From positions 10,664,001 to 10,728,000 of the forward strand of contig OZ004610.1 of NCBI GenBank assembly GCA_963924565.1: DNA of 64,000 bases, read 5' to 3'. The notes below the pieces were generated by a model. The model was not told where the DNA came from. It did not search any database and saw only the letters and a list, made by a program, of their open reading frames with translations. The translations under genes were made by a program, and so were the position numbers. Below, one piece after another: positions 13,225 through 64,000 of the stretch. Every line of letters begins with the position of its first letter. The stretch's first letter is position 1. The stretch comes from Ascidiella aspersa (lineage: Eukaryota).

Positions 13225-14322
13225 CTGCAATGTGTTTTCAAAGAAACAACAAACTACCATTTTACCTATTTTGACAGTATATATAGGATAGTATGGAGCT
13301 ACCAAGATAAATACACACTTAACAGGTGCATTCACAAAACACTAGACATATTTCTCAACTTGATTGGAAATGTCACTATTATTGGTTTGTATAGGCCTCG
13401 AGTACTGAGTACTGACTAATGAAAACTAAGAAAATATTAAAGATACGAACAATATTTGGAAATTTAAAAACAATATATATTTTGGATGTTTCAACAATCC
13501 TAGTTAAATTTTATTAGGTGGTAAAATATGAACGTATAACAAGGACATTTATTTATTTTTATATACAAAAACGAAAAAGGCTACACTTTATGCAGAACCT
13601 ATATAATCAACAAAACTCTTACGCCTTTTAGAGCAAATTTATGGTAACCCGATCTTAAAGAAACTCTGGTAACCTGCCTTCATATATGGATGGAAAAATG
13701 GTTTATTATTATACAAAACGCATAAAATCTTTACAAAATATGCATATTTATTAAAACCCGCATTATGCTACTCCAACCTGTTTAATAACAAAAAAACATT
13801 ATTGCGTCACAATACGATTTTAGGAGGAACAATAATATTTCTAAACATATGTTTGCAGCATATTTTATTAACTTTCTCTTGAAACCTTTAAGGTAAGTTG
13901 ATTTTCTTTAGTGCTATTGAAATTAACGAATACTTTTGCCGTGGCCCAATGTTCGATTGCTTAACTAATGTTGTGTGAAACGTTTTATTATCGACGGACT
14001 TTTTTTTACGTGTTGGCTAAATTGTAATTTATTTATTTTAAAGACTGTACGTTTCTAAGAACAGTATTTAAAGTATGGGCTGCAATATTTCGACATTTTA
14101 TGCTAGTTTTGCGTTTTATGATCCAAAATAGACGTTCAAATCATTTCTTATCATTTATCACTATTATAGTGTTTTGTGCTACTTTTGCGACGTATTACGT
14201 CTTCTTTATAGGCTTTGTCCAATAAGGATGTCAACATTTAGGCAATAACATAGTTTTACTCTTATTTTTTGTCTTTGTGTTTACCAATCGGCTAAAAGTG
14301 GGTAAAATTTTTTAATTTCTAC

Positions 14323-14784
14323 ATGGTTTTAGAAACGCCCAGGATTGACGCCTTCCAATTGTCAAAAAAAGTTACAATGGGAAGAGTGAAAAAGCGTACT
14401 TCGGCTTGTCAGAGCGTCAGCTCCAAAGATTCATCGTCTTCATCGGAATCGTCTTCCGGACCATCAACGAGGCGACGATCATCAGGTTCGAGCGATCCGG
14501 AAGATTTCCGGCATCACCTCTTTAAGGTTCTGCAGGAAATATACGACGACACGGGAATCACCAAGCAAGCCATGGACTCGATGAACGTTTTGGTCAACTA
14601 TCTCTTCGTATCACTTGTCACTACCGCGTCGGCGATTATGAGAAAGTCGAACAGAACTACGATGACAGCCAACGACATCCAAAGCGCCGTTCGCCAGGTC
14701 CTCCCTGGGGAGTTACAGAAGCACGCAGTTTCCGAAGGCACAAAGGCGGTTGCCAAATTTAAAAGTTATAGCAACTTAGACTAG
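14323..14784 (+). CDS. H2B: Divergent, solitary histone H2B variant with a Ser/Arg-rich N-tail (start may be the second ATG, 14377)
   Basis: Histone fold FKVLQEIYDDTGITKQAMDSMN...DIQSAVRQVLPGELQKHAVSEGTKAVAKF aligns without gaps to canonical H2B. Intronless; AATAAA at 14786-14791; no histone stem-loop seen. Confidence 0.9.
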   Translation: MVLETPRIDAFQLSKKVTMGRVKKRTSACQSVSSKDSSSSSESSSGPSTRRRSSGSSDPEDFRHHLFKVLQEIYDDTGITKQAMDSMNVLVNYLFVSLVTTASAIMRKSNRTTMTANDIQSAVRQVLPGELQKHAVSEGTKAVAKFKSYSNLD

Positions 14785-15620: not shown

Positions 15621-16938
15621 ACTTGTTGTTTAGCAAACTGTATAAACGTATCCCTTTTTGATCCCCTGCGCTTTTTTATCCCCTGTGCTGCTGTGCAATA
15701 TTCAATGATTTCAATTTGGTTTTGTAGGTGCACTCTTAGCTAAAAAAAAAATCATTGTAAAATGCATTTATCCACCTGGAGTCGTTTAGACATGCTGAAC
15801 TCCAGTCACTTTTGGTGTAGTACTTGATTTACAGACAGGCAAATTTAAATAATAACTTAATTTCGCGACTTTATTATAGCCCGGCAATTAAAAGTGACGT
15901 AATGTCTTTCCACCTGAAACCTAACAGTACTACTGCACACTATTTCAATTGTATTACATCATATTTAAATTTTAGCTTCTTTATGGGTTATATACATGTA
16001 CATCTGGTGATTTGCCATTGTGGAAAGTATGAAAAGTGCACTCATGTCTTTGTTGAATAGACCAAATCTGTAACTACCAATAAAAAAATTCACTGGTTTT
16101 TTGATATGTTAAACCGAAGAGATGTACTTTTTTACTTTTATTGCACCAAGTTTCCCAGATTTTTTATTTCATGCAAGTCTAGTGTTTTAATAATTCTATA
16201 GACACTTGTGTAAAATATGTAAAATCAACATATTTTTAAAAAGTAGTATGATATGATATGATTTTTTAATATTTAGACATTATGGTTTTGGGGGGCCTAA
16301 AATAAAATAAAAAGATGAATTGATCGATAAATTTGGGACAAATGTCATAATATTTTAGTTTTGAGTTCATGTAAAACTGTTCAAGTTACTATCACACCCA
16401 AACACATGTACACCAACTGTGGGCTGTTTAAAGGTAGTTTAAGGCTCCCTGCAGACTAGAAATTTTTATTGATCATCTGATTTGGTTAGTCTTGCAAGAA
16501 GACTGACAGTAAACTGATTGTTAGTTAGATAAATAAAAACGAAAATCCTTTTAAATAGTTAAATCTGAAAAAAAATTTCAAGTTTGTCTAAAGATTTAAA
16601 ATAAGTATTTTGTTGCAGATTATTTAACAGTAATGATAGTATTAAATGCAAAAATTATTTTGTGATTGAACAAACAATTTTAAAGCGTTTAGTTTTTACT
16701 AGACAAAATCCTCATTATTTTGAGACACGACTTTTAAGTCTATACAACCTTTTCAGATATGATCAAATTTGGCCAAAATGCAATATGACAAAACAATACA
16801 AACATAGGTTTGTACAGAAACAAATACTTTGGATAAACAAAATTGATTGGTAAATTGCAATTAACAATACTTTAATGTGATGTTCAGGAGTTTATCTAAG
16901 CAATTTTAGCTTGATGTAAGTTTGATTTTTTTCAAATC

Positions 16939-18492
16939 ATGTCTACTCTAAACATGGTTCCTGAAACAACAGAGGCACTTCAAGCCCTTGAAAAGCTTTT
17001 GCTCTGTATGTCATGTCAAAAAACAATGAAATGTCCAGTTGTCCTAATAGGCTGTGATCATGTGTTTTGCATGCAATGTTTGAAAGACAAAGGTAAATGT
17101 CCTTTGTGTGGTGTGCCGGTTTGGGTGCAAGACCTTAGAGTCAATAAGCAATTGGAAGACATTTCAAATGTGTGCGCACAAATTAGAACTAGCCTTTCAA
17201 CTGTTGATAAAGACAACAAATTACATGGCACACTAGATAAATCAGTTTGTGACATATCTGTTTCTAAAGGTAACAATGAAAAACAGGCTGCACCACTTGC
17301 AACTCCAGAAATGAACACTCCAGCTAAAGCCTTTCGCACACCTGGAACATTAGTTACACCAAAATGTCGAAGCACCCCAAGACATATGTGTTTAAAAACA
17401 CCGAAGAGTGGTCAAAAAAATAAGAAAGGGGAAACTGAGCTTCACATCGCAGCAATTCGGGGAAATATCGAGAAACTAACTGCTTTGTTGGAAGACGGTG
17501 TGGATGTAAATTTGAAAGACAATGCAGGCTGGTCAGCGTTACATGAGGCTAGCATTCATGGCCATGTTGAAATAGTCAAGAAACTAATTGATCATGGAGC
17601 ACTGGTGGACATACCTGGCCATCGTAATGATACGCCATTAATGGATGCAGTGGCAAATAACAAATTTGAAACTGTGAGAATATTGTTAAAATGTGGTGCG
17701 GACGTTAATTTGAGAAATGCTGTAGGAAAAACTGCAAAGTTTTTTGCGAAAAATGAAGAAATGTTAAAGTTGCTATCCAAAAAAACACTTGCTGTGACTG
17801 CAAGTTCACCACCTCAAGTAGTTGTCCCCTCTCCACTTCAAGCAAAGTTAAGCTGCTCAAGTTCCGTTGCATCAGATAAGGTTATAGCTTTTGGCCAGTT
17901 GTTTCCAATTAACCTACAAAATGATTGCGCGATTGGAGTCACTCATTTTGTGACATGCGTTGATCAAAACAGAAAAGCAAAACGCACAATAAAGTACTTG
18001 CAGGCCATGGCAAGTGGGGCTTGGATTTTGACTGAAGCTTGGTTGGATGCTTGTGTGAAACAAGTAAAGTGGGTGGAAGAACTGGACTATCAGGTTAAAA
18101 GTTGTGTGGATGATGGTGCAATAGGAGGACCTTTACGCTCTACTACTAGCCGGCTTAGGCAGGTACCACGACTGTTTGACGGCTGTCACTTTTTTTTGCA
18201 CGGCGCCTTCTCTCAACCATACCCTACCAAACAGCAACTGACCGAACTGATCAAAGCTGCAGATGGAAAGATTCTAAGCAGGTCTCCAAAGCCGGACAGC
18301 GACTGTGTTCAGATTTGTTCAAAGGTGCCTTACCATGCCAAGCCCGACTCTCCCGCTTACTACTTCACATATTACACAGTTTTCGACCCTTCAAAACATC
18401 CTTCTCCTCGTATGGTTAAACAAGGCAAAGTAAACACAGTGCCGGTGACCTGGCTACTGGATTGCCTGACCCAGTTTATCATCATGTCATAA
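16939..18492 (+). CDS. BARD1: BRCA1-associated RING domain protein 1 (RING, ankyrin repeats, tandem BRCT), intronless, 517 aa
   Basis: C3HC4 RING CMSC...CDHVFCMQC...CPLCGVPVWVQD; ankyrin repeats KGETELHIAA, AGWSALHEAS, RNDTPLMDAV; BRCT1 RTIKYLQAMASGAWILTEAWL; BRCT2 PRLFDGCHFFL...LSRSPKPDSDCVQ...WLLDCL. Confidence 0.96.
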   Translation: MSTLNMVPETTEALQALEKLLLCMSCQKTMKCPVVLIGCDHVFCMQCLKDKGKCPLCGVPVWVQDLRVNKQLEDISNVCAQIRTSLSTVDKDNKLHGTLDKSVCDISVSKGNNEKQAAPLATPEMNTPAKAFRTPGTLVTPKCRSTPRHMCLKTPKSGQKNKKGETELHIAAIRGNIEKLTALLEDGVDVNLKDNAGWSALHEASIHGHVEIVKKLIDHGALVDIPGHRNDTPLMDAVANNKFETVRILLKCGADVNLRNAVGKTAKFFAKNEEMLKLLSKKTLAVTASSPPQVVVPSPLQAKLSCSSSVASDKVIAFGQLFPINLQNDCAIGVTHFVTCVDQNRKAKRTIKYLQAMASGAWILTEAWLDACVKQVKWVEELDYQVKSCVDDGAIGGPLRSTTSRLRQVPRLFDGCHFFLHGAFSQPYPTKQQLTELIKAADGKILSRSPKPDSDCVQICSKVPYHAKPDSPAYYFTYYTVFDPSKHPSPRMVKQGKVNTVPVTWLLDCLTQFIIMS

Positions 18493-46842: not shown

Positions 46843-47208
46843 TATTGCGTTTTTCTGCTTTTTTACACTATAAAAATTAGACAAAAAAAACGACAAATGG
46901 ATGTGTTTGAAAAACAAATTCTGAGAAAATTTATTTGAAAACACGAGATAAATAAATTTTAGTTTGTATTTTGTTACTGAAATAGCTAAGTTTTACTGTA
47001 AAATGTAACCAAAATAAAAATAAAAATGATTTTTATATCTTGAACAACCACTCTTTGTTTTAGTATTGTTTAGAAGAGAAAAGGTGTACAAATGCTTTAA
47101 GTAGCAGCAGCTGAAAAGATCTAATCTAGATAATACAGCCCTAATTTAAAATTTAGCAAAATTGTTACAATAAAAAACATAAATATGCTGTTGCTACCAG
47201 GCATAGTA

Positions 47209-47280
47209 TATTTAAAACAGGTTCCTCTGGCAATATATATTATTAATAATATATATTGCCAGAGGAACCTGTTTTAAATA
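47209..47280. repeat. Perfect 72-bp palindrome with no spacer
   Basis: TATTTAAAACAGGTTCCTCTGGCAATATATATTATT followed directly by its exact reverse complement. Confidence 0.97.
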
Positions 47281-47377
47281 ATAAAAAACATGTATTTAAT
47301 ATCAAAACATTTATAATATATTTTATCTGGTATAAATAAATACTAAATATAATTCGTATTTTAGGACTGGCCATTTG

Positions 47378-48940
47378 CTAGAAAAAGTGTCTAATAAACA
47401 TGGATGCAACTGACACCCAACGCGGAACAGCATATCTTGGTTGAAGCAATGTCTCTCTGGTGACAGGTTGTGAGTACTTTCCAATTTTACATATTTCATT
47501 GTTAAGTTGAAGCTTTAGTTTTTTATTTCTTGTCACAACGGTCAACTGTGCTTCAAGATCGCGCTTTACAGAGCGAGACCCAAAATTTGATGATCCTACA
47601 ATAGTCAAGGTGGGAAGTGAGTTGTGTTTGTCGAACAGCCACAAACCTTTAGCATGATAAGTCCAGTTAGGACGTGAGTACTCATGCAGTTTAATTAATG
47701 GTTCTTTGCCACTTTGTGACACCTGCTCATGAAACTTTCTTGTAAGGTAATTGTACATCCTTGGAATGTATCCCATAAGACCAGGTGCATTGAGAAAGCC
47801 ATTGGCACTCTGAGAGGCTATATAAATATCAAACTTTGCTGGACTGTCTAATATAATGTTGGCATATTCCTTTGTGATATTAAAATATCCGGAAGTAAAG
47901 CAGATATGAGACTCTGGATTAGCATTCTGCAATATCGCTTTTGTGATCATTTCATCTTGGTTGATACCAGCAAATCCAAGTTGAACCGATGGGAAAATCA
48001 TTGTATCTTTATCTCCTGAAACAGCATGTGAACTGTGGGCATGCTCATTCAAGGTTGCTGTGCAAACATTGTTTGAAGTTTTATTTGCCAGACTACTCAA
48101 ATTCAGAAGACTCCAAAGACAACCTACCGATGTCTTTAAAAGTCCAAGAAAGTAATTGGTATTTGCATATGCAGTTCTTCGTGATAAATCTGGATAAATA
48201 ATCGGTTGCAATTGGCTATTAACATAAGTCACAAACAGGTCAAAATCACCATTATAAGGGTGGACTGGACATTGTTTTGAAAATACTGTTGTACCGTCAT
48301 GTTGTAAGTGATAGGAAAATGACCGGACGGCTTTTACCAGGTTTTGAAAATAGTCTGCAAGTGGCTTGCAGTTGTTAAACTGAATATACCTGTCCTGCCT
48401 CTGAGTGAAGTAATCATTGCTTAAATTTGCACCACTAATTATTAGGCTATCATCAAAGACAAACACTTTCATGTGTGCTAGACCAATGATTTCATTCCAT
48501 TTGGCTGGCAACCAGTTCTTATAGAATCCGCGCAGTAGCGGGGAGTGATACAAAGACACCTGCAGTGTAATGTCCGACGGGTTCTCAGGATCGCAAAAGT
48601 CGCTCATTAGACCAGAAAACATGGTTTTGGAGTTTACGCTTTGTCCTCTTGAACCTCTAGCATAATCTATTAATATATCAACATTCATAATTTGGTGGTT
48701 CTTTTTCATGGTTAGCATTGCCTTGTGGAGGCAAGTAACAAGTTGCTTTTCCAGATTCCCTGTCCCCAGATAAAGAGAAGACAACACAATTCTATGTTGA
48801 GCTGTTTTTATACCATCAATCAACGCTTCATAGAAATCTCCTGGGCTATCAAATACAGTAACATCATCTCCATTTATCGAAAAACTGGGAGCATGATTGC
48901 ATAACCACTTGAACTTCACCAAAGGGTCTTCAATGCACAT
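47378..48940 (-). CDS. PGS1: CDP-diacylglycerol--glycerol-3-phosphate 3-phosphatidyltransferase, mitochondrial (PLD superfamily), one long exon, 520 aa
   Basis: RIVLSSLYLGTG, DYARGSRG, LYHSPLLRG, NEIIGLAHMKVFVFDDSLIISGANLSNDYFTQRQDRY, TSGYFN, WTYHAKGLW, GSSNFGSRSVKRDLEAQ. Confidence 0.96.
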   Translation of the reverse strand: MCIEDPLVKFKWLCNHAPSFSINGDDVTVFDSPGDFYEALIDGIKTAQHRIVLSSLYLGTGNLEKQLVTCLHKAMLTMKKNHQIMNVDILIDYARGSRGQSVNSKTMFSGLMSDFCDPENPSDITLQVSLYHSPLLRGFYKNWLPAKWNEIIGLAHMKVFVFDDSLIISGANLSNDYFTQRQDRYIQFNNCKPLADYFQNLVKAVRSFSYHLQHDGTTVFSKQCPVHPYNGDFDLFVTYVNSQLQPIIYPDLSRRTAYANTNYFLGLLKTSVGCLWSLLNLSSLANKTSNNVCTATLNEHAHSSHAVSGDKDTMIFPSVQLGFAGINQDEMITKAILQNANPESHICFTSGYFNITKEYANIILDSPAKFDIYIASQSANGFLNAPGLMGYIPRMYNYLTRKFHEQVSQSGKEPLIKLHEYSRPNWTYHAKGLWLFDKHNSLPTLTIVGSSNFGSRSVKRDLEAQLTVVTRNKKLKLQLNNEICKIGKYSQPVTRETLLQPRYAVPRWVSVASMFIRHFF

Positions 48941-49090
48941 AATAAAAAAGTTCTTGTTGACAACAGTCTATAAAATATAACTAAGATCTACCTAAAAGAC
49001 AAGAAATTAGCAAAATAAAGGAAAAGTAGATAGAATTTTACCGAAGCTGTAAGGAGAGTATTTGTCCCCCATAATTTGTAGAGCATTTTA

Positions 49091-51288: not shown

Positions 51289-54200
51289 CCGGTAATCGAT
51301 AAAATTTAAATGTTTCCAACTTTTTTAAATAAACCCAACTTTGAAAATGAAAGATAATAGCCTACTAATTATAGTTTGTATATATCCGACTCAAATAAAT
51401 CAATATTCGTTGCTTTAATAGATTTTTATTGGAAACTCATCGATGCCTTAGGCGTCATCACCCATAAATGCTGTATGCGTAGGCATTTACAAAAAGAGTT
51501 GCTTATCGTCACACTTTAACTTTAACCGTTTTAATAATTTTGTTTTACCACTATTTGAATTTTTGAGCTATAGCGAGTTAGAGTTCAAATTCTTAACAAA
51601 TTTCGTTATCTTGAATTTACTTTCCTGCATTCCAGCAACACCAATGACCTACAACTAACTTCTATAAAATGTTTCGTTAGTCTTACATGAAGTTTTGCTG
51701 ACTTGACTTGTAGGCTATGTCTGATATGAAAACAAAAAATATTGAAAACAACGTAGACCCATATCGTTCGCTTTGACGTGCTTCCGTCATTGAAAATACA
51801 GTAGCGCAATAAACACAGCACATTACGATATTATGACACGTCGTACTGTGCTTTTTAATAATTCAGTAAATGCAAAAAACATTAACTCGTTGCTTAAAAC
51901 GTTGTTTAAAAAAAAGAAAACCAGCAATTAATCTACTAAGCAACGAGCTTTAAAGTATAATTCTTTATGAATAAATTACATTACAAGTCATGTATAACAA
52001 TTCTTATAACACTTAAAAAGCTCTGAGGGCCAATATATTAGTTTAGGGTGGTCCAATATTGCCATCACCTGCGGCAGTGGTTCTAAAACTGGTGTACGCG
52101 AGCAAGTTTCTTTATACTGCAGTGTTTTAATGGAAACACACTACAAGATCTAAAACGCAACACTACCTAATGCAGAAATATTTATAAAACCAAAGCATTT
52201 AAAGTTAAACCAACGACATAATAAAGCCAAATATGCAGTAATATCGATTGAAATCCAATAATAACTAAACCTGTCGGAATGCGTCCTAAACTCATCGGAG
52301 GCCTAAATGGCCCAAATAAGTTCGAAAACTGTAGAGGTGGGAATGGAACTTAAAGGACCGTCGGTCTGGCATCGGCCGTTTTGGTGTAGAAGACATTGAG
52401 GCGCCGTAGTTCGACCGGCGCCTACAAGGCGTCGCTGTTTTGGCAAGGTATTTTTGGTTCTGTATGGGGTTATTTATGGGTAATGGGCGGGGTTAGATAA
52501 TGGGTTAGGGTAAAAAATATTAGGGGAGTTAGTGATGTCCTTAGGGTTTTATTTGCAAATAATCGACTATAGCAGACAATACTTCTAAAGAATGTCCTAC
52601 ATCTTTAAAGTAACGAAAACTAGTGACATTTGTCAATTGGGAATAACTCTCAGAAGTAAAACCCCAGGTTCTAGCAGCAATTGTTTAGACTTGCCTGAGC
52701 GTGATATTTAAGCTTATACGTAATCCCGGAGTGGGAGAAAAATCCCCATCGAAAATATAAATTAATTACGGTTAAATTGCTGCAATAAACGCAATATACT
52801 GTGGACTCTGCTTAAATGTTGCGTGTTGAACACATTGTAAGAATAAGGCTTTGGCCTCGATCGCTATCAAATTATTTTGGGGAAGGTTTGTCGTACGATA
52901 CTGCATCCAACGTCGGAAAAGCCCGTGACCCGTTTGAATTGCTTGCTGTTAAAACTGCTGCAATAAACGCGGTATTTTTTGACACAGCAATTACGTAAAC
53001 GGAAAGGCATATAATGTAAAACAAAAAAATGCAGCAATGTGATAGCCTACTATTAACCCAATATTTAACACAATTTCAATGATATTATTAACCCAATTTT
53101 ACTAAAAAAATGTTAGACAAAACACTTAATTTTAACCGACGTCATTTGACTCGATGACTTCTTACAAGAGTCATTTGTCCAACGAGTTAAGTCATCTTAC
53201 CAAAACGACTTTAAGTCAAGACAAGACTTTTAAAAACATTCAGGTCGTTGATTCAAGTCATTACAATATACGTGGAGTTGGTTTTGTTCTTTAGCTTTAT
53301 TGGAATATCAACTTATGACTATATAGTCATCCTGACAGACAAATAAGTCCCCATTACTGACCTAAAGCCGCTGCTAGCACGCAATGCATCTCATTAAAAT
53401 TGCGGCTTGTTGAACTAAAAACGTGTTTTGTGGCATTAAGTAATGCGATTGTCTGATTTGAATCTGCTTTCCGACTCAAATAAATCACGGAATACAAGTT
53501 TGCAAATCAATAAATGCCCTTAGGCATGGCTCAGAATAATTTTTGTGTGAAACCAAAGTGATCAGGAATTGTAAAAAAGTACAGCACAAACAGATACGTG
53601 ATCGGTTATTTCAATCTTAATGCAAGGCTATCATGTCGTGAATAAAACGGAAACAAATTAAATGAAACTTCAGTACAACGTGTAACGATAGAATTTTTTA
53701 TGCCCGTTCTTAATTTAGAGGTGATTCGTGTAATCTCAAGTTTGTTCAACTTAGGTTGGTATTTTTGTCTGGGCATTGATTTCTTTATATTGTAGTGCGC
53801 AAACCACCAGTGGTACGCGAGCAGTTCGGGCCATTTGCTGAGTTTAAAGAAATTGATACAATTGCATTGGAGCTGCTGAGTTGCTGTTACATTGAAACGA
53901 TCTATTTGTTTGAACTACATCGTTGTACGCGTGACGCTGTGAGAAAGTGTTGGCTATTTAAATTGTGTGTTTTACTGATTAAGCAAGTTTAAAAACATAT
54001 AGGTTCTTCTGAAACCAGGTGGTACGCAGCGTCAGTAAAAAACATAGCTTCGATTAAAAACAACTCCAGTCGGCCAACAGTCGAAAAAAATAAAACAAAA
54101 AATAAACTCGAGTCCTTATTAACGTACGGTAACTAAAATAGATGTGGATTTACAGTAATCCCTCATAGGGATGACATATACTTCATTCACCAACAGTGTA

Positions 54201-54324
54201 TCCACCCACAAAACGTGGTTTAAATAAATCTAGGCACTGGAACGTTAACTTGCCTTAATGGACTAAAATACATTTTAAAGCAATCAACAAAATATTACGT
54301 TTTTTTTAGCAATAGATTTGTAAC

Positions 54325-56664
54325 ATGTTGCAACTTACTTTATGTGTTTGTGCGTTGCTTGTGTTGTGCGTTGAACCAAACGCAAGATGCTCCCAAGACC
54401 AGTTTCAATGTAGCAGGCCAGGCGTGAAGTGCATTAACCAAACTCAAGTTTGCAACGGGCAGTTGGACTGTTGGTTGGGCGAAGACGAGGCAAACTGCAC
54501 AACTTGCAAATCAGGAGCGAAGAAGTGCAACGATGGGAGCAAGTGTGTTCCGTGGTGCAATGGATATAACGATTGTAACGATTGGAGCGATGAGACGAAC
54601 TGTACGACTTGCAAACTAGGAGCGAAGAAGTGCAACGTTGGGAAGCAGTGTATTCGCTCAAGTTTGTGGTGCGATGGGCAGTTGCATTGTGACGATTTGA
54701 GCGATAAGACAAACTGTACAACTTGCAAATCAGGAGCGAAGAAATGCAAGGATGGGAGGCAATGTGTCGACGCAAGTGGGTGGTGTGATGGTCAGTTGCA
54801 TTGTGACGATTTAAGTGATGAGACGAATTGCACAACTTGCAACCCAGGAGAGGAGAAGTGCAATGATGCAAGGCAGTGTATTCGCGCAAGTTTGTTGTGC
54901 GATGGGAAGTTACATTGTGGCGATTTGAGTGATGAGACGAACTGTACAACTTGCAATGAAGGAGCGAAAATGTGCGATGGTGGACGGCAGTGTGTTGACT
55001 CAAGTTGGTGGTGCGATGGGCAGTTACATTGTGACGATTGGAGCGATGAGACGAACTGTACAACTTGCAATGAAGGAGCGAAGAAGTGTGATGATGGGCG
55101 GCTTTGTATTCGGGCAAGCAATTGGTGCGATGGGCGGCAAAATTGTCACGATTGGAGCGATGAGGCGGACTGTGCAACTTGCAAACCAGGAGCGAAGAAG
55201 TGCAATGGTGGAAGGCAGTGTGTTGACGCAAGTGAGTGGTGCGATGGGCGGAAAAATTGTAACGATAAGAGTGATGAGACGAACTGCACAACTTGCAAAC
55301 CAGGAGCAAAGAAGTGTATTGATGGAAGACAGTGTGTTGACGCAAGTTGGTGGTGCGATGGGCAGACAGATTGTCACGATTGGAGCGATGAGGCGAATTG
55401 CACAACTTGCAATGGAAGAGCGAAAATGTGCGATGATGGGAAGTTATGTATGCACTTAAGCAAGTGGTGCGATGGAATAATAGGTTGTGACGATGCCAGC
55501 GACGAGAATAGCTGTAAAACTTGCAATGGAGGAGCAAAGATGTGCAATGATGGGAAGTTGTGTTTGCCCGCAAGCGGGTGGTGCGATGGACCGGAAGAAT
55601 GTTACGATAAGAGTGATGAGACGAACTGTACAACTTGCAATGAAAGAGCAAAGATGTGCAATGATGGGAAGTTTTGTTGGCCCGCAAGCAGGTGGTGCGA
55701 CGGACGGTATGGTTGTCACGATTGGAGCGATGAGACAAACTGCACAACTTGCAAACCAGGAGCAAAGAAATGCAAGGATGGGAGGCAGTGTATTCTCGTA
55801 AGTTCGTGGTGCGATGGGTATAACCATTGTACCGATTTGAGCGATGAGAGGTTCTGCCCAATAACTTGCGAACCAGGAACGAAGATGTGCAATACAGAGA
55901 GCAAGTGTATTGGCACAAGCCGGTGGTGCGATGGACGGTATGATTGTGACGATTGGAGCGATGAGTTGAACTGCACAACTTGCAAACCAGGAGCGAAGAT
56001 GTGCGGTGAAGGGAGGCATTGTATTTCCGTACGTTGGTGGTGCGATGGGGAAAACGATTGTAGCGATTGGAGCGACGAGGCAAACTGTCCACTGTGCAAG
56101 AAAGGAACGAAGATGTGCAACGATGGGAGCAATTGTGTTTTGTGGTGTAATGGGTATAACGATTGTCAGGATTGGAGCGATGAGACGAACTGCACAACTT
56201 GTTATTTAGGAGCGAAAATGTGCAATGATGGAAGCAAGTGCATTCGCGAAAGCAAGTGGTGCGATGGGCAGGAGGATTGTTACGATTGGAGCGATGAGAC
56301 GAACTGTACAACTTGCAAACCAGAAGTGAAGATGTGCGATGATGGGAGGCAATGTGTTGACGTAAGTTGGTGGTGCGATGGGCGGAAAAATTGTTACGAT
56401 TGGAGCGATGAGACGAACTGCACAACTTGCAAACCAGGAGCAAAAAAGTGCATTGATGGTAGGCAGTGTGTTGACGCAAGTTGGTGGTGCGATGGGCGGA
56501 AGGATTGTTACGATTGGAGCGATGAGACGAACTGCACAACTTGCAAACCAGGAGCAAAAAAGTGCATTGATGGTAGGCAGTGTGTTGACGCAAGTTGGTG
56601 GTGCGATGGGCGGAAGGATTGTCATGATTGGAGCGATGAGGAGACTGTTTGCCTCAACAAATGA
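54325..56664 (+). CDS. Secreted protein made of 20 tandem LDL-receptor class A (complement-type) modules, intronless, 779 aa
   Basis: Signal peptide MLQLTLCVCALLVLCVEPNA, then 20 six-Cys units ending C-x-D-x-S-D-E-x-x-C (mostly 38 aa, 114 nt); stop right after the last module; no TM, EGF, YWTD or protease domain. Confidence 0.88.
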   Translation: MLQLTLCVCALLVLCVEPNARCSQDQFQCSRPGVKCINQTQVCNGQLDCWLGEDEANCTTCKSGAKKCNDGSKCVPWCNGYNDCNDWSDETNCTTCKLGAKKCNVGKQCIRSSLWCDGQLHCDDLSDKTNCTTCKSGAKKCKDGRQCVDASGWCDGQLHCDDLSDETNCTTCNPGEEKCNDARQCIRASLLCDGKLHCGDLSDETNCTTCNEGAKMCDGGRQCVDSSWWCDGQLHCDDWSDETNCTTCNEGAKKCDDGRLCIRASNWCDGRQNCHDWSDEADCATCKPGAKKCNGGRQCVDASEWCDGRKNCNDKSDETNCTTCKPGAKKCIDGRQCVDASWWCDGQTDCHDWSDEANCTTCNGRAKMCDDGKLCMHLSKWCDGIIGCDDASDENSCKTCNGGAKMCNDGKLCLPASGWCDGPEECYDKSDETNCTTCNERAKMCNDGKFCWPASRWCDGRYGCHDWSDETNCTTCKPGAKKCKDGRQCILVSSWCDGYNHCTDLSDERFCPITCEPGTKMCNTESKCIGTSRWCDGRYDCDDWSDELNCTTCKPGAKMCGEGRHCISVRWWCDGENDCSDWSDEANCPLCKKGTKMCNDGSNCVLWCNGYNDCQDWSDETNCTTCYLGAKMCNDGSKCIRESKWCDGQEDCYDWSDETNCTTCKPEVKMCDDGRQCVDVSWWCDGRKNCYDWSDETNCTTCKPGAKKCIDGRQCVDASWWCDGRKDCYDWSDETNCTTCKPGAKKCIDGRQCVDASWWCDGRKDCHDWSDEETVCLNK

Positions 56665-57996
56665 CGCTTCTTGGCAGTATTCTGTGTTTCGTATCACACG
56701 TAACTTCCTGCTTTTCATTTTCATGTTTGTGGCTTACATACTTATCTGTGGACAAAGTAACAAAATGGCAAATGCAAGCTACAAACTACCTAATTATAAT
56801 CTACAAAAACGAATTTCTCGCTTGATTAATACTGAATTGCTGGATCCCAATGTGTGTGCTAGCTTATGCTTTCCGATGATGTTTTATTTGTAAGTGCTGG
56901 TATTTTCCTTTTTATGACCATCAGTGCTTTGAACCCTTTGCATTACTCCACATTAATAGATAGATGTTGTGGTCGATTTTGGAAATTTGAAACGCACAAA
57001 AACGATGACGACACACTAAGCACGTGGTCTTAGAATATGCGAATAGTTTTGCAATAACTATCATTACCTAAAAATGGCGGCTTTGAAACGCGCACGACAG
57101 TTACAGTTCGATCACTGTTCCGCTGACGCGTATATAAACAATAAAGTTTAAAATCCAGAGTAAAATCATTGTAAGACATTTTTTAAAAGAAATATATATT
57201 TCGCCTATGCTGGCATCGTCAGTTCCTATGAGTGTGTAGCATCATAAGTAATAATTAGTGGATAATTTGGAATTTATTGGATTGTGTATTTATCAAATAT
57301 GTTACGATTTATGATTTGTCATTTTTTCACGCCTTTTACCAAACACTCGCTGTCATTCTGAGAACAGAGCATTCGGCTGTTTCACACATGAATAATGTTA
57401 TATCTTGACACATACTTCCGTTATAGATAAAAGTTTTTCACCAGTGTGAACGCGTTATTGTTGCAGTTCCCGGCTGCCAAAAAGGTACCTGGTTATAAAT
57501 CATTTCCGCTTTCTCCTGTCGCCTTCTCTCTTTCATGCAAACTTTCAACTTGTATATGCGAAACTTATATCAATATATATCCAGTCTTGTCTAGTCAATA
57601 CAGTGAGTGGTTGTGCTTGCCGGCATTAGCCGGTTTGCCCATAATAGCCAACACAAACTGTGTGGAATTGTAATCAGACAACAGCAATACTTATTGAAGT
57701 AATAGTGAGGTTGATTGCCGAGGCAAATTAGTTTAATGAGACATGCAATAAAAACCGCATGCTTCAAGTGAAGTAAAATACATAATATATAAAGCAAACT
57801 ATTAATAAATTAATAAAAAGGTAAAAAACATACGGAATCAGTATTGGTTTAGTAAAAAGTTTAAAAACGAAACATCAGGCTGTCAGAAGAAAACTATCTA
57901 ATGCAAAGCAGCAGAGCACAGACAAAACACGACGCGATGGAAAGAAAAATGAGTAGAAAAAAGAGAAGTGCTTACGGCAACCATTGCGTAAAAAGG

Positions 57997-58440
57997 TTAT
58001 CTTATGCGAGGTAAAACTGTTTCAACTGAACGGTTCCATTCTTGGTTGCAGAGCGTTGTTGGCATCATACCTTTGCTATCTTTGAAGTGGCCACACATAC
58101 AGCAGTTACCACATGGTGATGATTTTCCAGTAGCTGGGCTGTAATCGTCTGAAGTTTTCCCAATAGATTTGTAATCGATTAAAATGCTTCCCAATGTTGG
58201 TGGCCGTTTATATGTTATCATTGCATGGGGCTGCAGTTTGTTTTCGTTTTTAGTGGTTTTAAGCAAATTCGGAAAAGATGTCGGCCAAACTACGAGGTTC
58301 GTTTGTTTCTTCTTGGTCGGACGTTGACGTGGCCCGTCTTTTAACTGAACTGCATCGTTAATTGCTTCCTGGACCATTCTCCGAGGAAAATGCGATTGAG
58401 CGAATTTTGTGCTAAGGATTTTGGCTTGCTGGGGGAGTCT
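57997..58440 (-). mobile_element. Remnant of a Penelope-like (RT plus GIY-YIG) retroelement linker region
   Basis: Open frame KILSTKFAQSHFPRRMVQEAINDA...MITYKRPPTLGSIL...GKSSPCGNCCMCGH resembles the PLE helix segment, the YKRPxxL motif and the Cys cluster that precede the GIY-YIG domain. RT and nuclease cores are not visible. Confidence 0.6.
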
Positions 58441-59686
58441 TAATTGTTCACGTGTTGCTCTTGTTGAAGGCGAGTGTGACGTTCTTCCGGTGTTTTCCGT
58501 TGTCTAGGCATTTCTCGTGTTGCGTCATACGGTTCGAGCTGAGTGTGACGTTCCTCAGTATTATCGAGTATTTTACGTGCTACACACGCTTGTAAACCGA
58601 TTTCGTCGCTTTACTTAAGGTTCTGCCGCCATTAAAGCCCTCTGCGTTGTGCAGCGGGTGACATACATTTCTGTGAGCAAATAATGGTTGGTTTTGTAAT
58701 ATAACTTGTAATTTCATAATTAAAGAAATTGTTATTGGGTCTAGTCGCGCCTGACGTGAAAAATTAGGTTTATTTTGGTTAAATTAGCAAAACTTTCAAT
58801 TGAAAAGGTGCGTGACGCCCTTGACATCGTTTATGAGTTACATCGCGCAACATATCGTAGTATGCCTCGCGGCTTTGAGATAAATCGATTTCCTTAAAAC
58901 TGTTTGTATTTAGGTAGTAATTGTTGCCATGGGCCTCGCCACTGGCGTGATACAAATTTAATTAAGATAATTCAGTAATTCTGATCGAAATTGTGTGGAA
59001 TAATTCCGACACGCAATAATAAGTTTGTTTGAAGTTTGGCTACATAACAATATTTTTAAGATGTTGTATTTAAGGTCGCCACAAATGCCAATACTATAAA
59101 CTGCCGTCGCCGCCCTCGGCCGGACGTTTTCGCGCTTGTACCAAGTATATGCCGGCGGATGCGGCCGGTTAGTGTAAGGGAGCTGTTTTTATCGGAAAAG
59201 GTAGCTTTTGAGACATTAAAACGGCGGTTGAAAACAACGAAAACTGAGATAAAACTTTGTCTAAGGATTTAATGAACTTCGCTATGGTATAGGCCTAGTT
59301 ATTAATTGGAAGGCTTTACCAATTTTAATAGTTTACTGTTTAATGACAAAAACTTGAATGGGAAATGACTTAGTCGTATGAACTTGACTTGCTATTTATT
59401 CAAACGGACTAGAACTTACGTCATTTCACAATGAAAAGCGAATACAATAGGGATTATAGCTGGTCAGTTGCCGACTGGATTTGCCAGACCAGAGAAGAGG
59501 AAATCCGAGTGAAAGATTAAAGAAATGTTACGATCAAGAAGCATCATCATTCTTTACAGATATGCATGTAGAGACTCTACCGAAGTCTTGCGGTAACTTT
59601 ACCTGTCAAACGATATTCCTGTTGTATTCTATTAATCATCCTTCTCGTGTCTGCTTAGCCTTACCCTATATGCTTTGCATTTAATC

Positions 59687-60527: not shown

Positions 60528-61433
60528 CTAAACATGCTCTCCATTCCATAGCTCATCTTTTATGGCATGTTTTGGATCACAAGTAAAGGAAATTGTTAGT
60601 GCATAACGAACCCCTTCGGTCACCTTTTTAACATGGTGTGGATTTTCGGACCCAGAGGTAAAGAATGAAATCCTGCCAAGTTTAGGTTCCACAGTGATGT
60701 TTCTGTCATCAAAAACAAACTGACCACCCTGAAAATCCTGGCCATAATTAGAAAGATATAAGAGTGAAGTGTAGTCAAACGAGCCATATTGAATTTTGTC
60801 TATGTGACTGTGCCAGTACTCGTCATGTTGAGTGCGTGCTTCCTTAGATGTGATTCGTGAAAAGAATGTTGGCTTTGTTAGAAAAAGATATTCATGGTTA
60901 ATACCAAAATGATGTGCGACTAAATGGCGAACCCTGTCTTTTATATTTTTAAAAACTTGCAAGCCATGTTCTGGAAACAAGTCTTTTAATTGGGAATTGC
61001 TTAGCACTTTGTAAATGTTAATAAATTTTTCCCCTTTAGACAAAGCACCAGAGTGAAGGTCAAGGATGGATGCACCACCATGTGACCCACCATACTGCAT
61101 TACACTTTTTACAATGTCAAGCAGTTCCTCAACCTCTTTTTCTGTTACAAGACCATCTTTCACACCACGGCCACACAATTTTGTTGGGGTACATTTATCG
61201 AATTTCGGATAATTTTTGTAGTCACTTGAGCAAGTTACATTTTCTGATTTAGAAGTGTAAGTCTCACTCTGCAATGCAAAAATGAGATTGTGCGAATTTT
61301 CAGATCTTATCCATAAAACAGCTACAACCACAATACCACAAGCCACTGTCAAAAGCTTTTTTGATTGACTTGTTTTACTCTGCTGAGCTTGAGGTTCTTT
61401 TTTTGATTTGCTTTGTCCTTTGTTTTTCACCAT
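60528..61433 (-). CDS. OGFOD3: 2-oxoglutarate and iron-dependent oxygenase domain-containing protein 3, intronless, 301 aa
   Basis: Basic N-terminus and TM helix LLTVACGIVVVAVLWI; GGASILDLHSGALSKG; LTKPTFFSRI; HDEYWHSHIDK (HxD); FTSGSENPHHV; RYALTISFTCDP. Confidence 0.95.
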   Translation of the reverse strand: MVKNKGQSKSKKEPQAQQSKTSQSKKLLTVACGIVVVAVLWIRSENSHNLIFALQSETYTSKSENVTCSSDYKNYPKFDKCTPTKLCGRGVKDGLVTEKEVEELLDIVKSVMQYGGSHGGASILDLHSGALSKGEKFINIYKVLSNSQLKDLFPEHGLQVFKNIKDRVRHLVAHHFGINHEYLFLTKPTFFSRITSKEARTQHDEYWHSHIDKIQYGSFDYTSLLYLSNYGQDFQGGQFVFDDRNITVEPKLGRISFFTSGSENPHHVKKVTEGVRYALTISFTCDPKHAIKDELWNGEHV

Positions 61434-62069
61434 TGGCAGCGTTATTTAACTTCTATATAAAAAAATATCTTAATTCTAAAAAATAATGTTTACAAAACCA
61501 AAAGCATCCTGAAGATGTTGCATTGGGAAGAGATAAGACTAACATTTTTGTTTCACACATAGATCAAGTTTGACAATCGAACAAGCAAAAATATTGCTCT
61601 TTATTACGAACTTTCACAAAATTTAAAACTGTAAAAATGTTTGTAAATTTGGTAATTAGGTTTTAGAAAGTAAGTTTGCATTGATGTCTATATTCACAAA
61701 AGAAATTAAAATTATACCAAATATATAGCAGATGCAAATTTCAATGATTATTTTAACCTATTTATCTATTCTGGAATATCGGATCCATCAAGTTCTTTAT
61801 GACAGAAAATTTAAATTTTCATATTGAAGAACCAGTCTGCATTCTGTGACAGGTCAACATAAACTTCACACCTCAAAATGTGGATGAAATGCAGAAAGGT
61901 TATACGAACTATTGATCCTATACTTCATATTTTGTTATGTTAGCCTATGTTTTGTTTGAAAAGTATACATATATGGTGCAGATAACACAGGTGTGCATTA
62001 CCAAATTTAAAGATTCAAGAACTTATGAATATTTTAATAATCCTACAACATCTTTTACATACAAATTAC

Positions 62070-62100: not shown

Positions 62101-63125
62101 AAACAAACAATTAAAGCAACGTACAATATTTGGGTTAGGATGTCGGTTTGGTAAAGTATGATTATTTAAGCATATTGCTTAACCTATACCCAAACTGCTA
62201 ACCTGCACCCTAACCCAAATAATAACTTCACGACTGTCAAAAGTAAATAAATCTATGTTTTAACAGACATATGGGGGCCGAAGTTTACAGTCTGTATTTC
62301 ATTTTCACGGCACTTAATGCCGAAATCTCCATTGCCCTGCCCTTGCTGACTTTATGCATGATTAATTTCGAGAAACAACACGATTGCAACATAAAATACA
62401 TCATAGAGATCAGTGAGCTAGAATCGGTAAACACGATTAACAATAGATAATATGGTATTTAAGAAATCCCAAGCAAATTTTTAGCGTTGCATGCATCACA
62501 TAAACATGTACCCGCTGACCCGTGATAATTACCGCCGACTGCACAACGACAACGTAATATAACAAACTGTTTAACTACGATAAAATAAATATGTATGTTT
62601 TGTGAGATAGCAACACGTGAAGTTTGGTTAGTCCAAAAAAACATTGGTGCGCAGTGCGCATTGCAATTCTGTTACAGAGACGTCTGCATTGATTTTGTGA
62701 GAGTACTAACTGACAATTTGGATGTAAAGTTTACGATTGTGTTTTAGTTTTAAGCCCAAGAAGATATTCCATATGTATAATACGCTGTCTCGAATTTTTA
62801 TCGTATTGTGATGCTCCCTTAACAGTTTTTTTTTGTTTATGTTTTTGTGCATTTAATTCCACTTCAATAAATCTGGGCATAAAAGCAATGAAACCAATTG
62901 ATTGGCTAATCTCAATTGATTGATTTTCATTGAACAAATTTGCAGATCACAAAGGTAAAAATGTGTTTTATTTAAACCAAAATCAAGATGTTGTCAATAA
63001 ATAAAATGTTTTAAACAATTCAAATCATTTTTGTTAATCATTGGTTTGGAAAATAATGGTTGGTGTTTTATTTAATAGAACAAATAATTATTTTGTTTGC
63101 GAATTTGCCTGTTTTGTTTATACAA

Positions 63126-64000
63126 ATGAATCCTTCACCAAGTAAAGCGGAGGAAGATAACAAGTTGAATAAAGGAGTGACACGTGGTAAAAAACGGAAA
63201 AAGACCATGAGAGATGAAAATGCCCCTAAACGTCCAGTTAATGCTTATGTGATGTTTATGAACGAGCGACGAGAAGCGTTGTCAAAAAAATTTCAAGATC
63301 TTTCATTTGCTGAAATTACAAAATTAGTTGGAGAAGAGTGGAGTTCACTGGACAACCTAAAGAAGAAAAACTATTGGGACAGGGCAGAGAAGGAAAAAGA
63401 AAGATATTTAAAAGAATTAAAAGAGTACAAACAAACTGAAGCTTTTCAGTCATTTCTTAACAAATCTAAAGAAGTAAAAGAAACACCAACCTCTTCAAAA
63501 AATGAAAATATAGGAGCAGCTGCACCCAGCACTGGACAAAGAGCTGAAACCAAGAGTGGAGATGGTTCAGATATTCCTATATTCACAGAGGCATTTTTAG
63601 ACTATAACAAGACAAAAGAGAGTGAGCTTCACCAGCTTATTAAAGCAAATACTGCATATGAGAAGCAAAACATTTTGCTGGAAAAACATGTTGACAATCT
63701 AAAAAATGCTGTTGCAAAACTTAATGCTGAAACAGAGCAACAAAACCAAACTAACAACGAAATTGAAAGTAAGCTGAATAGCTTCCGTAACTTGTTGCTT
63801 GATGCATTCAGAGACATCCGATTGCCCACTAGCAATGTATATCCCACTATTGAAAATATAGATTCTTACATGGCCGAGACATGTGCAGCTTTACAAGATA
63901 ATGTAGGGAATAAGAAGTTTGTATCTGCCATTCAAAATGTAATGGGTAAAGTAAATTTTCAAACAGCTGATGAAACTTGGAATGATGAAGATGACAAAAA
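63126..64000 (+). CDS. HMG20A: HMG20A/HMG20B (BRAF35/iBRAF) HMG-box protein, intronless so far, 3'-truncated by the window edge (absent from the ORF track)
   Basis: Open frame from ATG 63126 to the window end: KKRKKTMRDENAPKRPVNAYVMFMNERRE...FAEITKLVGEEWSSL...AEKEKERYLKELKEYKQTEAF, then the family signature DIPIFTEAFLDYNK, a coiled coil and PTIENIDSYM. A versus B cannot be resolved. Confidence 0.93.
   Translation, partial: MNPSPSKAEEDNKLNKGVTRGKKRKKTMRDENAPKRPVNAYVMFMNERREALSKKFQDLSFAEITKLVGEEWSSLDNLKKKNYWDRAEKEKERYLKELKEYKQTEAFQSFLNKSKEVKETPTSSKNENIGAAAPSTGQRAETKSGDGSDIPIFTEAFLDYNKTKESELHQLIKANTAYEKQNILLEKHVDNLKNAVAKLNAETEQQNQTNNEIESKLNSFRNLLLDAFRDIRLPTSNVYPTIENIDSYMAETCAALQDNVGNKKFVSAIQNVMGKVNFQTADETWNDEDDK

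What the first reader, a model, noticed from the sequence alone, without database searches (positions are those of the whole stretch)
54325..56664. Secreted all-LDLa polymer with atypical Lys-rich modules and variable loops
Seen: only module 1 has the canonical CxxxxFxC start. Modules 2-20 have Lys in place of the conserved Phe (CKPGAKKC, CNEGAKMC). Most linkers carry an N-C-T glycosylation sequon. The Asp before Cys5 is H, N, G or E in 11 of 20 modules. Variation concentrates between Cys3 and Cys5 while the framework is homogenised. There is no membrane anchor or effector domain. Known: LDLa modules bind ligand lysines through a Ca2+-organised acidic pocket plus a Trp. Inference: each module carries both the pocket and exposed lysines, so the protein could self-assemble Ca2+-dependently (matrix or adhesive), or act as a multivalent soluble decoy or variable recognition protein. 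It lies in a CpG-rich, TE-littered ~10 kb block, as a lineage-specific inducible gene might.
Basis: partly seen in the sequence, partly recalled or inferred. Interest (0 to 1): 0.7.

Follow-up and report, generated by a model that had tools for sequence, protein, structure and literature searches.

The report
Secreted ectodomain cut from a GPCR
This sea-squirt-type gene is a copy of a membrane receptor that lost its membrane part through a 2-kb deletion yet kept its 20 ligand-binding repeats intact, so it likely makes a secreted decoy for whatever the receptor family binds.

Summary
The ORF is real: 779 aa, signal-peptide-like start, 20 LDLa modules, no membrane segment. It is not a stand-alone polymer. 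It is one of at least 56 single-exon paralogues of a tunicate LDLa-repeat GPCR family (Ciona LDLRR-GPCR type); 39 of the 55 others are intact receptors. A ~2,046-bp deletion joined the last module to the loop before TM5, out of frame. The TM5-TM7 remnant lies right after the stop and has decayed (3 indels, Leu-to-Arg changes). The Lys-for-Phe swap, N-C-T linkers, lost Asp and variable loops are shared with the intact receptors, so they do not point to self-assembly. The junction is in two read sets, one behaving as RNA and carrying a second set of alleles. The array shows no stop or cysteine loss, where neutral decay predicts several, so selection likely kept it after the receptor part died. 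Best reading: a retained, secreted, non-signalling decoy or opsonin (0.55). Main rival: a transcribed pseudogene whose frameshift is recent (0.25). Ligand and protein are untested. The scan's earlier notes held nothing on this family.

The parts
52984..54089 (+). Upstream blocks collinear with the sister gene L021 (73-88% identity): likely shared promoter/5' region, so this duplication was DNA-based
54325..54384 (+). Predicted signal peptide (hydrophobic core residues 4-16). Pro at the -3 position, where 29 of 29 parsed intact paralogues have A, T or V
   Evidence: no signal-peptide predictor was available
54388..54498 (+). LDLa module 1, canonical Phe type; equivalent to module 1 of the receptors
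54505..56652 (+). Tandem array of 19 Lys-type LDLa modules (114-bp unit); invariant Cys/acidic framework, variable loops
56640..56642 (+). Deletion junction: end of module 20 (Asp-Glu), one extra G, then the GPCR extracellular loop 2. 2,046 bp of sister gene L021 (stalk, TM1-TM4) are absent
   Evidence: bridged by contigs of X1 and X3
56641..56664 (+). Seven out-of-frame codons (ETVCLNK) and stop; they supply a sixth Cys to module 20
56642..57012 (+). Decayed GPCR remnant (end of ECL2, TM5, ICL3, TM6, TM7), now 3' untranslated: 5-bp deletion after 56835, 20-bp deletion after 56867, 3-bp insertion near 56916, 22 private substitutions
57140..57145 (+). AATAAA, candidate polyadenylation signal (inferred)

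Best explanation
The gene is an internally deleted, frameshifted paralogue of a tunicate LDLa-repeat GPCR, and it likely persists under selection as a secreted, non-signalling decoy or opsonin that would bind the receptors' ligands through 20 predicted calcium-caged modules. Shown: origin by a ~2-kb deletion, decayed 7TM remnant, intact array, junction present in independent reads. Inferred: transcription (X3 behaves as RNA but is not on record as such), purifying selection after the loss, secretion, calcium binding. Untested: protein, ligand, tissue. By established LDLa chemistry each module grips a ligand lysine with an acidic cage and a Trp; 20 modules with differing loops would give avid, broad binding in blood or tunic, competing with or feeding the membrane receptors.
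For: Family: 42 DNA matches, 49 exact matches to the loop-2 motif, 39 of 55 fetched paralogues intact from signal peptide to TM7; relatives are Ciona, Phallusia, Clavelina and Styela proteins with LDLa + 7tm_1. Junction mapped. Real DNA: X1 contig 56593-57137 with 0 differences, X3 contig with 2, both without gaps. X3 covers the neighbouring genes and this gene, and has zero depth in five single-copy intergenic bins that DNA run X2 covers. Tail decay: 19 amino-acid-changing to 3 silent private changes, branch 0.133, spread over TM5, ICL3, TM6 and TM7, including L-to-R twice, I-to-N, L-to-H. Array: 0 stops, 0 frameshifts, 0 Cys lost. Neutral simulation gives no stop and no Cys loss in 1 of 3000 runs at d=0.02 and 0 of 3000 at d>=0.046; for only 10 modules P=0.023 and 0.0007. 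Both frameshifts falling in the tail: P=0.015-0.043. Framework pN/pS 0 (Cys) and 0.06 (cage/core) in 8 disjoint module pairs. None of 16 modules is more than 87% identical to any of 161 modules from other genes, so no sign of recent repair by conversion. Sister gene L021 is the only one of 39 intact paralogues lacking the TM2 Asp and the TM6 Pro, so this lineage already leans to non-signalling. Three modules fold confidently (pLDDT 92) and match LDLa arrays of megalin, VLDLR and LDLR.
Against: Pseudogenes are common here: 16 of 55 paralogues are broken, several leaving open truncated ectodomain ORFs by accident. The deletion against L021 is a multiple of 3, so an in-frame, TM5-anchored stage followed by a later 1-bp insertion is possible; remnant TM5 is still fairly hydrophobic (2.16 against 2.44-2.88). 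Then the selection signal would belong to the anchored stage. L021's own TM5-TM7 has pN/pS about 0.87, so tail substitutions do not cleanly date the deletion; at d=0.01 the 10-module test is not significant (P=0.14). Most module divergence may predate the deletion. The assembly allele carries two framework departures, K128 and L191, where X2/X3 have the usual E and W. Pro at signal position -3 is unique. X3 depth on the gene is low (2-18).
Confidence: 0.55

Rival explanations
1. Transcribed pseudogene. An in-frame deletion first made a membrane-tethered LDLa array (kept by selection), and a recent 1-bp insertion disabled it; or the array simply has not yet been hit.
For: 16 of 55 paralogues are broken. 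Deletion length 2,046 is in frame and the shift comes from one extra base. Remnant TM5 hydropathy 2.16. Two framework-damaging alleles in the assembly. Pro at -3.
Against: TM5 changed as often as the rest of the tail and gained two Arg and a Gly, unlike a kept anchor. The extra base is in X1 and in X3, which carries other alleles. Multi-lesion pseudogenes L059, L061, L070, L071 all have stops or frameshifts within their much shorter 5' arrays. The shifted frame restores a sixth Cys through a T present in only 2 of 18 intact paralogues.
Confidence: 0.25
2. Re-purposed structural protein: the freed array cross-links itself or partners in a calcium-dependent matrix (tunic, egg coat, adhesive).
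For: Second-longest array of those counted (20; only L030 is longer); 16 N-glycosylation sequons; precedent of secreted calcium-dependent envelope proteins in sea urchin eggs (abstract starts of PMC2113521 and PMC2114886; their LDLa make-up is recalled, not seen).
Against: Every feature cited for self-binding is inherited from membrane receptors; the copy has fewer Lys and is more acidic than they are. Loop pN/pS of 1.1-1.6 fits recognition better than a structural role. Low depth in X3 is not what an abundant matrix protein would suggest, though contig depth is a poor measure.
Confidence: 0.12
3. A membrane form is still made, by splicing or frameshifting into the TM5 remnant, giving a single-pass tethered decoy.
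For: The TM5 frame is open for 83 codons after the junction.
Against: X3 bridges the junction unspliced and no GT..AG joint was listed there (tables were cut). Only the stretch after TM4 remains in the window.
Confidence: 0.06
4. Assembly artefact (mis-join of two paralogues or expanded repeat).
For: Modules 19 and 20 differ at only 2 of 99 bases; no contig spans the whole array.
Against: Short-read contigs of X1 match seven stretches of the gene, with 0 differences in six and 1 in one, and bridge the junction; X3 bridges it too. Both ends are closest to the same sister gene in the 5' comparison and the trees.
Confidence: 0.02

Closest known systems
Ciona LDLRR-GPCR family (Kamesh et al. 2008, PMC2396169; passages and section 14 read)
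   Same: Tandem LDL-A repeats before a rhodopsin-type 7TM, no LRRs, lineage-specific expansion. The paralogue L032 hits Ciona, Phallusia, Clavelina and Styela LDLa+7tm_1 proteins at up to 42% identity, E down to 1e-168. The paper reports most ESTs from blood and haemocytes and no known ligand.
   Different: 14 confirmed members with 1-10 repeats there; at least 56 loci with arrays up to about 23 here. The Lys-type module was not seen in the eight tunicate relatives inspected by eye. The window gene has lost the 7TM; the passages read describe no such member.
LGR7-Truncate splice variants of RXFP1 (review PMC7196478, passages read)
   Same: Frameshifted, LDLa-only product of an LDLa-GPCR gene with a few extra C-terminal residues; inhibits signalling of the full receptor.
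   Different: One LDLa module, made by splicing; that module is a tethered activator. Here a separate gene made by genomic deletion, 20 modules, antagonism untested.
Lgr4-ED (PMC4154783, abstract read)
   Same: Secreted ectodomain of a GPCR-family receptor acting as ligand-absorbing antagonist.
   Different: LRR ectodomain, splice variant, known ligands.
Ligand-binding arrays of LDLR, VLDLR and megalin
   Same: Fold and six-Cys/acidic framework.
   Different: No EGF, beta-propeller or TM; Phe replaced by Lys in 18 of 20 modules; one cage Asp replaced in 11 of 20.
Sea-urchin fertilisation-envelope proteins proteoliaisin, SFE1, SFE9 (PMC3528131 passages; LDLa content recalled)
   Same: Secreted, calcium-dependent assembly proteins; recalled as rich in LDLa repeats.
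   Different: No relationship shown; the window gene descends from a GPCR.

Membership tests
LDLa (class A) repeat | Six Cys in the class A spacing; Pfam PF00057 | tested here: met
   120 of 120 Cys, 20 Pfam stretches
LDLa (class A) repeat | LDLa fold | tested here: met
   Predicted model of three modules, pLDDT 92; best matches megalin/VLDLR/LDLR, E down to 1e-8
LDLa (class A) repeat | Complete acidic calcium cage and Phe core (consensus recalled) | tested here: inconclusive
   Asp after Cys4 and S-D invariant in 16 standard modules, Glu 15 of 16; Asp before Cys5 in only 9 of 20; Phe in 1 of 20. Calcium binding not measured
Tunicate LDLRR-GPCR gene family | Descent from the family | tested here: met
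   5' end 85.7% identical to L021, tail 71-79% to 18 intact paralogues; family hits Ciona/Phallusia/Clavelina
Tunicate LDLRR-GPCR gene family | Tandem LDL-A repeats without LRRs | tested here: met
Tunicate LDLRR-GPCR gene family | Seven-TM domain in the protein | tested here: not met
   TM1-TM4 deleted, TM5-TM7 out of frame and broken: a derivative, not a receptor
Soluble GPCR-ectodomain decoys (LGR7-Truncate, Lgr4-ED) | Ectodomain-only ORF with signal peptide | tested here: met
   cleavage site uncertain
Soluble GPCR-ectodomain decoys (LGR7-Truncate, Lgr4-ED) | Transcribed | tested here: inconclusive
   RNA-like run X3 bridges the junction; its kind is not on record and only contigs were laid
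Soluble GPCR-ectodomain decoys (LGR7-Truncate, Lgr4-ED) | Secreted protein that antagonises the receptor | not testable with these tools
   needs protein work and a ligand
Pseudogene | Neutral decay across the coding region | tested here: not met
   Decay confined to the tail; array intact against simulation; caveat on dating
Self-assembling LDLa matrix proteins | Calcium-dependent oligomerisation | not tested
   No complex prediction was run; Lys content is below that of the receptors

The most novel reading that the evidence does not exclude
This tunicate runs a paired recognition system: dozens of single-exon GPCRs whose LDLa arrays (0 to about 23 modules) shuffle and diversify in their loops, plus decoys repeatedly cut from them (secreted here and perhaps at L029 and L074; tethered at L021 and L036). 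The window gene would be a gene-encoded, 20-valent soluble pattern-recognition protein, an antibody-like counterpart of a variable GPCR family in a vertebrate sister group.
Probability: 0.25. Interest if true: 0.75.

Novelty: new variant of a known kind. Interest (0 to 1): 0.42.

Why it matters
The tunicate LDLa-GPCRs are orphan receptors, reported mostly from blood cells. A natural, soluble 20-module version is a ready-made bait for finding their ligands. It would also show a decoy arising as its own gene from a GPCR by deletion, with the dead 7TM left in the 3' UTR as a clock; the precedents found are splice variants. The family's variable module number and loop pN/pS of 1.1-1.6 make it a candidate diversified recognition family. 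If the gene is a young pseudogene, it is an ordinary casualty of birth-and-death evolution.

Tried and rejected
Protein search with the whole ORF gave only generic LDLa proteins (best 37-44% identity) and hid the family; the genome DNA search exposed it. Two first motif searches were mis-designed (0 and 2 hits). An array-motif search gave 49 hits, all inside known GPCR-family loci, so no free-standing non-GPCR array was found with that pattern. No RNA holder was listed on record. Missing X3 cover over 55161-56368 proves nothing. Branch-wise selection on a module tree could not be run, so selection rests on pairwise counts and cannot be timed to after the deletion. The regex count of the Cys2-2 residue in other tunicates mis-parsed their modules and was dropped. 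Retroposition was rejected for this duplication because 1.3 kb of upstream homology with L021 exists. Peptidase_S13 and YMF19 hits are noise. Literature searches found no paper on a secreted member of this family; subscription journals are mostly not searched and the supplements of PMC2396169 were not read. Earlier scan notes gave one unrelated bacterial LDLa note. No complex prediction was run.

Full report
Observation. The window holds a single-exon ORF at 54325-56664 (+) of 779 aa, over a 114-bp tandem unit. Pfam sees 20 LDLa stretches. A three-module model folds at pLDDT 92 and matches the LDLa arrays of megalin, VLDLR and LDLR.

What it is. A DNA search of the genome (308 Mb) returned 42 matches. 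Most of the 19 other loci examined first run past the same array into a cysteine-rich stalk and on to TM1. An exact motif from extracellular loop 2 occurs at 49 places. Of 55 other loci fetched, 39 are single ORFs from signal peptide to TM7 and 16 are broken; this is a lower bound on the family. Pfam gives LDLa plus 7tm_1 for L032 and L030, and LDLa alone for L021. L032's relatives with a name are Ciona, Phallusia, Clavelina and Styela LDLa+7tm_1 proteins, the LDLRR-GPCR type of PMC2396169 (passages and one section), which has no LRRs, no known ligand and mostly blood-cell ESTs. The animal is therefore inferred to be a tunicate.

The lesion. Directly after the Asp-Glu of module 20 the window switches to loop 2 of the receptor. 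Against the sister gene L021, 2,046 bp (stalk and TM1-TM4) are missing and one extra G shifts the frame, giving seven new codons and a stop. Both parent ends share a 4-base microhomology, so a one-step out-of-frame join and a two-step history (in-frame deletion, later 1-bp insertion) both fit. L021 is the sister: 85.7% over the 5' end against at most 71.7% for others, paired with it in both trees (support for that pair was not printed), with 1.3 kb of shared upstream sequence.

Is it real and read? X1 matches the gene almost exactly and bridges the junction with no difference. X3 bridges it with two differences. X3 is not on record as RNA, but its contigs follow the three neighbouring genes and this one, and it has zero depth in five single-copy intergenic bins that X2 covers. 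X3 shares alleles with X2, so the junction exists on a second genetic background. Contigs cannot give level, strand or ends, and the exact number of near-identical terminal modules is not independently confirmed.

The atypical features are inherited. In 143 modules from 29 intact receptors (32 examined; 7 divergent short-array genes left out; modules picked by Cys spacing), 111 have Lys at the Phe position, 88 lack the Asp before Cys5 and 132 keep the linker Asn. Pairwise pN/pS is 0-0.06 in the framework and 1.1-1.6 in the Cys3-Cys5 loops for the window gene, and 0-0.16 and 1.1-1.4 for intact receptors (no significance test, and loops were named after variation was seen). The window modules have fewer Lys and more acid than receptor modules. 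The self-assembly argument thus has no special support.

Dead or kept? The remnant has 22 private substitutions (19 amino-acid-changing), a branch length of 0.133, two frameshifting deletions and a 3-bp insertion, with charged residues in TM5, TM6 and TM7. The 2.3-kb array has no stop, frameshift or lost Cys. Neutral simulation passes both filters in 1 of 3000 runs at d=0.02 and 0 of 3000 at 0.046 or more; with only 10 modules P is 0.14, 0.023 and 0.0007 at d=0.01, 0.02, 0.046. The value 0.046 is rough: three indels times about five substitutions per indel, from 16 SNPs and 3 indels listed upstream in X2 (table cut). No module is over 87% identical to another gene's, against recent conversion. 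Four multi-lesion pseudogenes all carry lesions in their shorter arrays. Against: broken copies are common; L021's TM5-TM7 is itself relaxed (pN/pS 0.87), which blurs the clock; remnant TM5 is still hydrophobic, so an anchored stage is possible; the assembly allele has K128 and L191 where X2/X3 have E and W; the signal peptide has Pro at -3.

Mechanism. From established LDLa chemistry (recalled), each module uses a calcium-organised acidic cage and an aromatic residue to hold a ligand lysine. A secreted, glycosylated string of 20 such modules with differing loops would bind multivalent ligands avidly and could not signal. It would compete with, or deliver ligand to, the membrane paralogues. 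L021 alone among 39 intact genes lacks the TM2 Asp and TM6 Pro (their role in class A signalling is recalled), so the whole branch may have moved to decoy duty. Precedents are splice variants: LGR7-Truncate (PMC7196478 passages) and Lgr4-ED (PMC4154783 abstract). Searches found no report of a secreted member of the tunicate family.

Verdict. Observation confirmed; interpretation partly supported. A deletion-derived ectodomain of a known receptor family, probably kept by selection: new variant of a known kind, interest 0.42.

Noticed in passing
L021 (G000:C8:5243500-5251500), ORF 1667-5779: Sister gene: intact ORF with 14 N-terminal modules, but the only one of 39 lacking the TM2 Asp and TM6 Pro; no Pfam 7tm_1 hit; TM5-TM7 pN/pS about 0.87. 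Possible tethered non-signalling decoy.
   Followed up: partly
L036, L073, L074 (G000:C3 730-774 kb) and L029 (G000:C7:13858000-13866000): Other truncated paralogues with long open ectodomains. L036 and L073 share one breakpoint at the end of TM1 and are 90% identical (L073 is broken near its start); L074 stops just before TM1; L029 ends in the stalk.
   Followed up: partly
L030 (G000:C7:15412500-15421000): Receptor with about 22-23 array modules, the first ten or so strongly acidic and Trp-rich (mean net charge -6.9 per module over all): a different predicted ligand class.
   Followed up: no
G000, all nine large contigs: At least 56 single-exon LDLa-GPCR loci, array length 0 to about 23, clusters on C2 and C5, 16 of 55 broken; CpG o/e 0.76-0.96 in 18 coding regions against 0.40-0.49 in four housekeeping neighbours.
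   Followed up: partly
window 54300-54324: Pyrimidine tract and AG 16 bases before the ATG, similar in several paralogues: likely a splice or trans-splice acceptor (inferred from sequence).
   Followed up: no
window 54505-54603, 55750-55857, 56095-56193: Modules 2, 13 and 16 resemble the last two array modules of L021 (short loop; ERFC ending) but lie inside the array, showing module shuffling.
   Followed up: no
window 14296-14784, 16915-18492, 47378-48967, 60528-61445, 63057-63998: Long single ORFs: histone-fold protein with a Ser-rich N-terminus, RING-ankyrin-BRCT (BARD1-like), phospholipase D family (PGS1-like), 2OG-Fe(II) oxygenase (OGFOD3-like), and an HMG20-like ORF (families except the last; gene names recalled).
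   Followed up: no
window 57997-58503 (-): 168-aa ORF with a CxxCxxC stretch, no Pfam hit; recalled resemblance to a Penelope-type retroelement remnant, untested.
   Followed up: no
window 47181-47309: 129-bp segment in the 3' region of the PGS1-like gene is replaced in X2 and X3: structural polymorphism.
   Followed up: no
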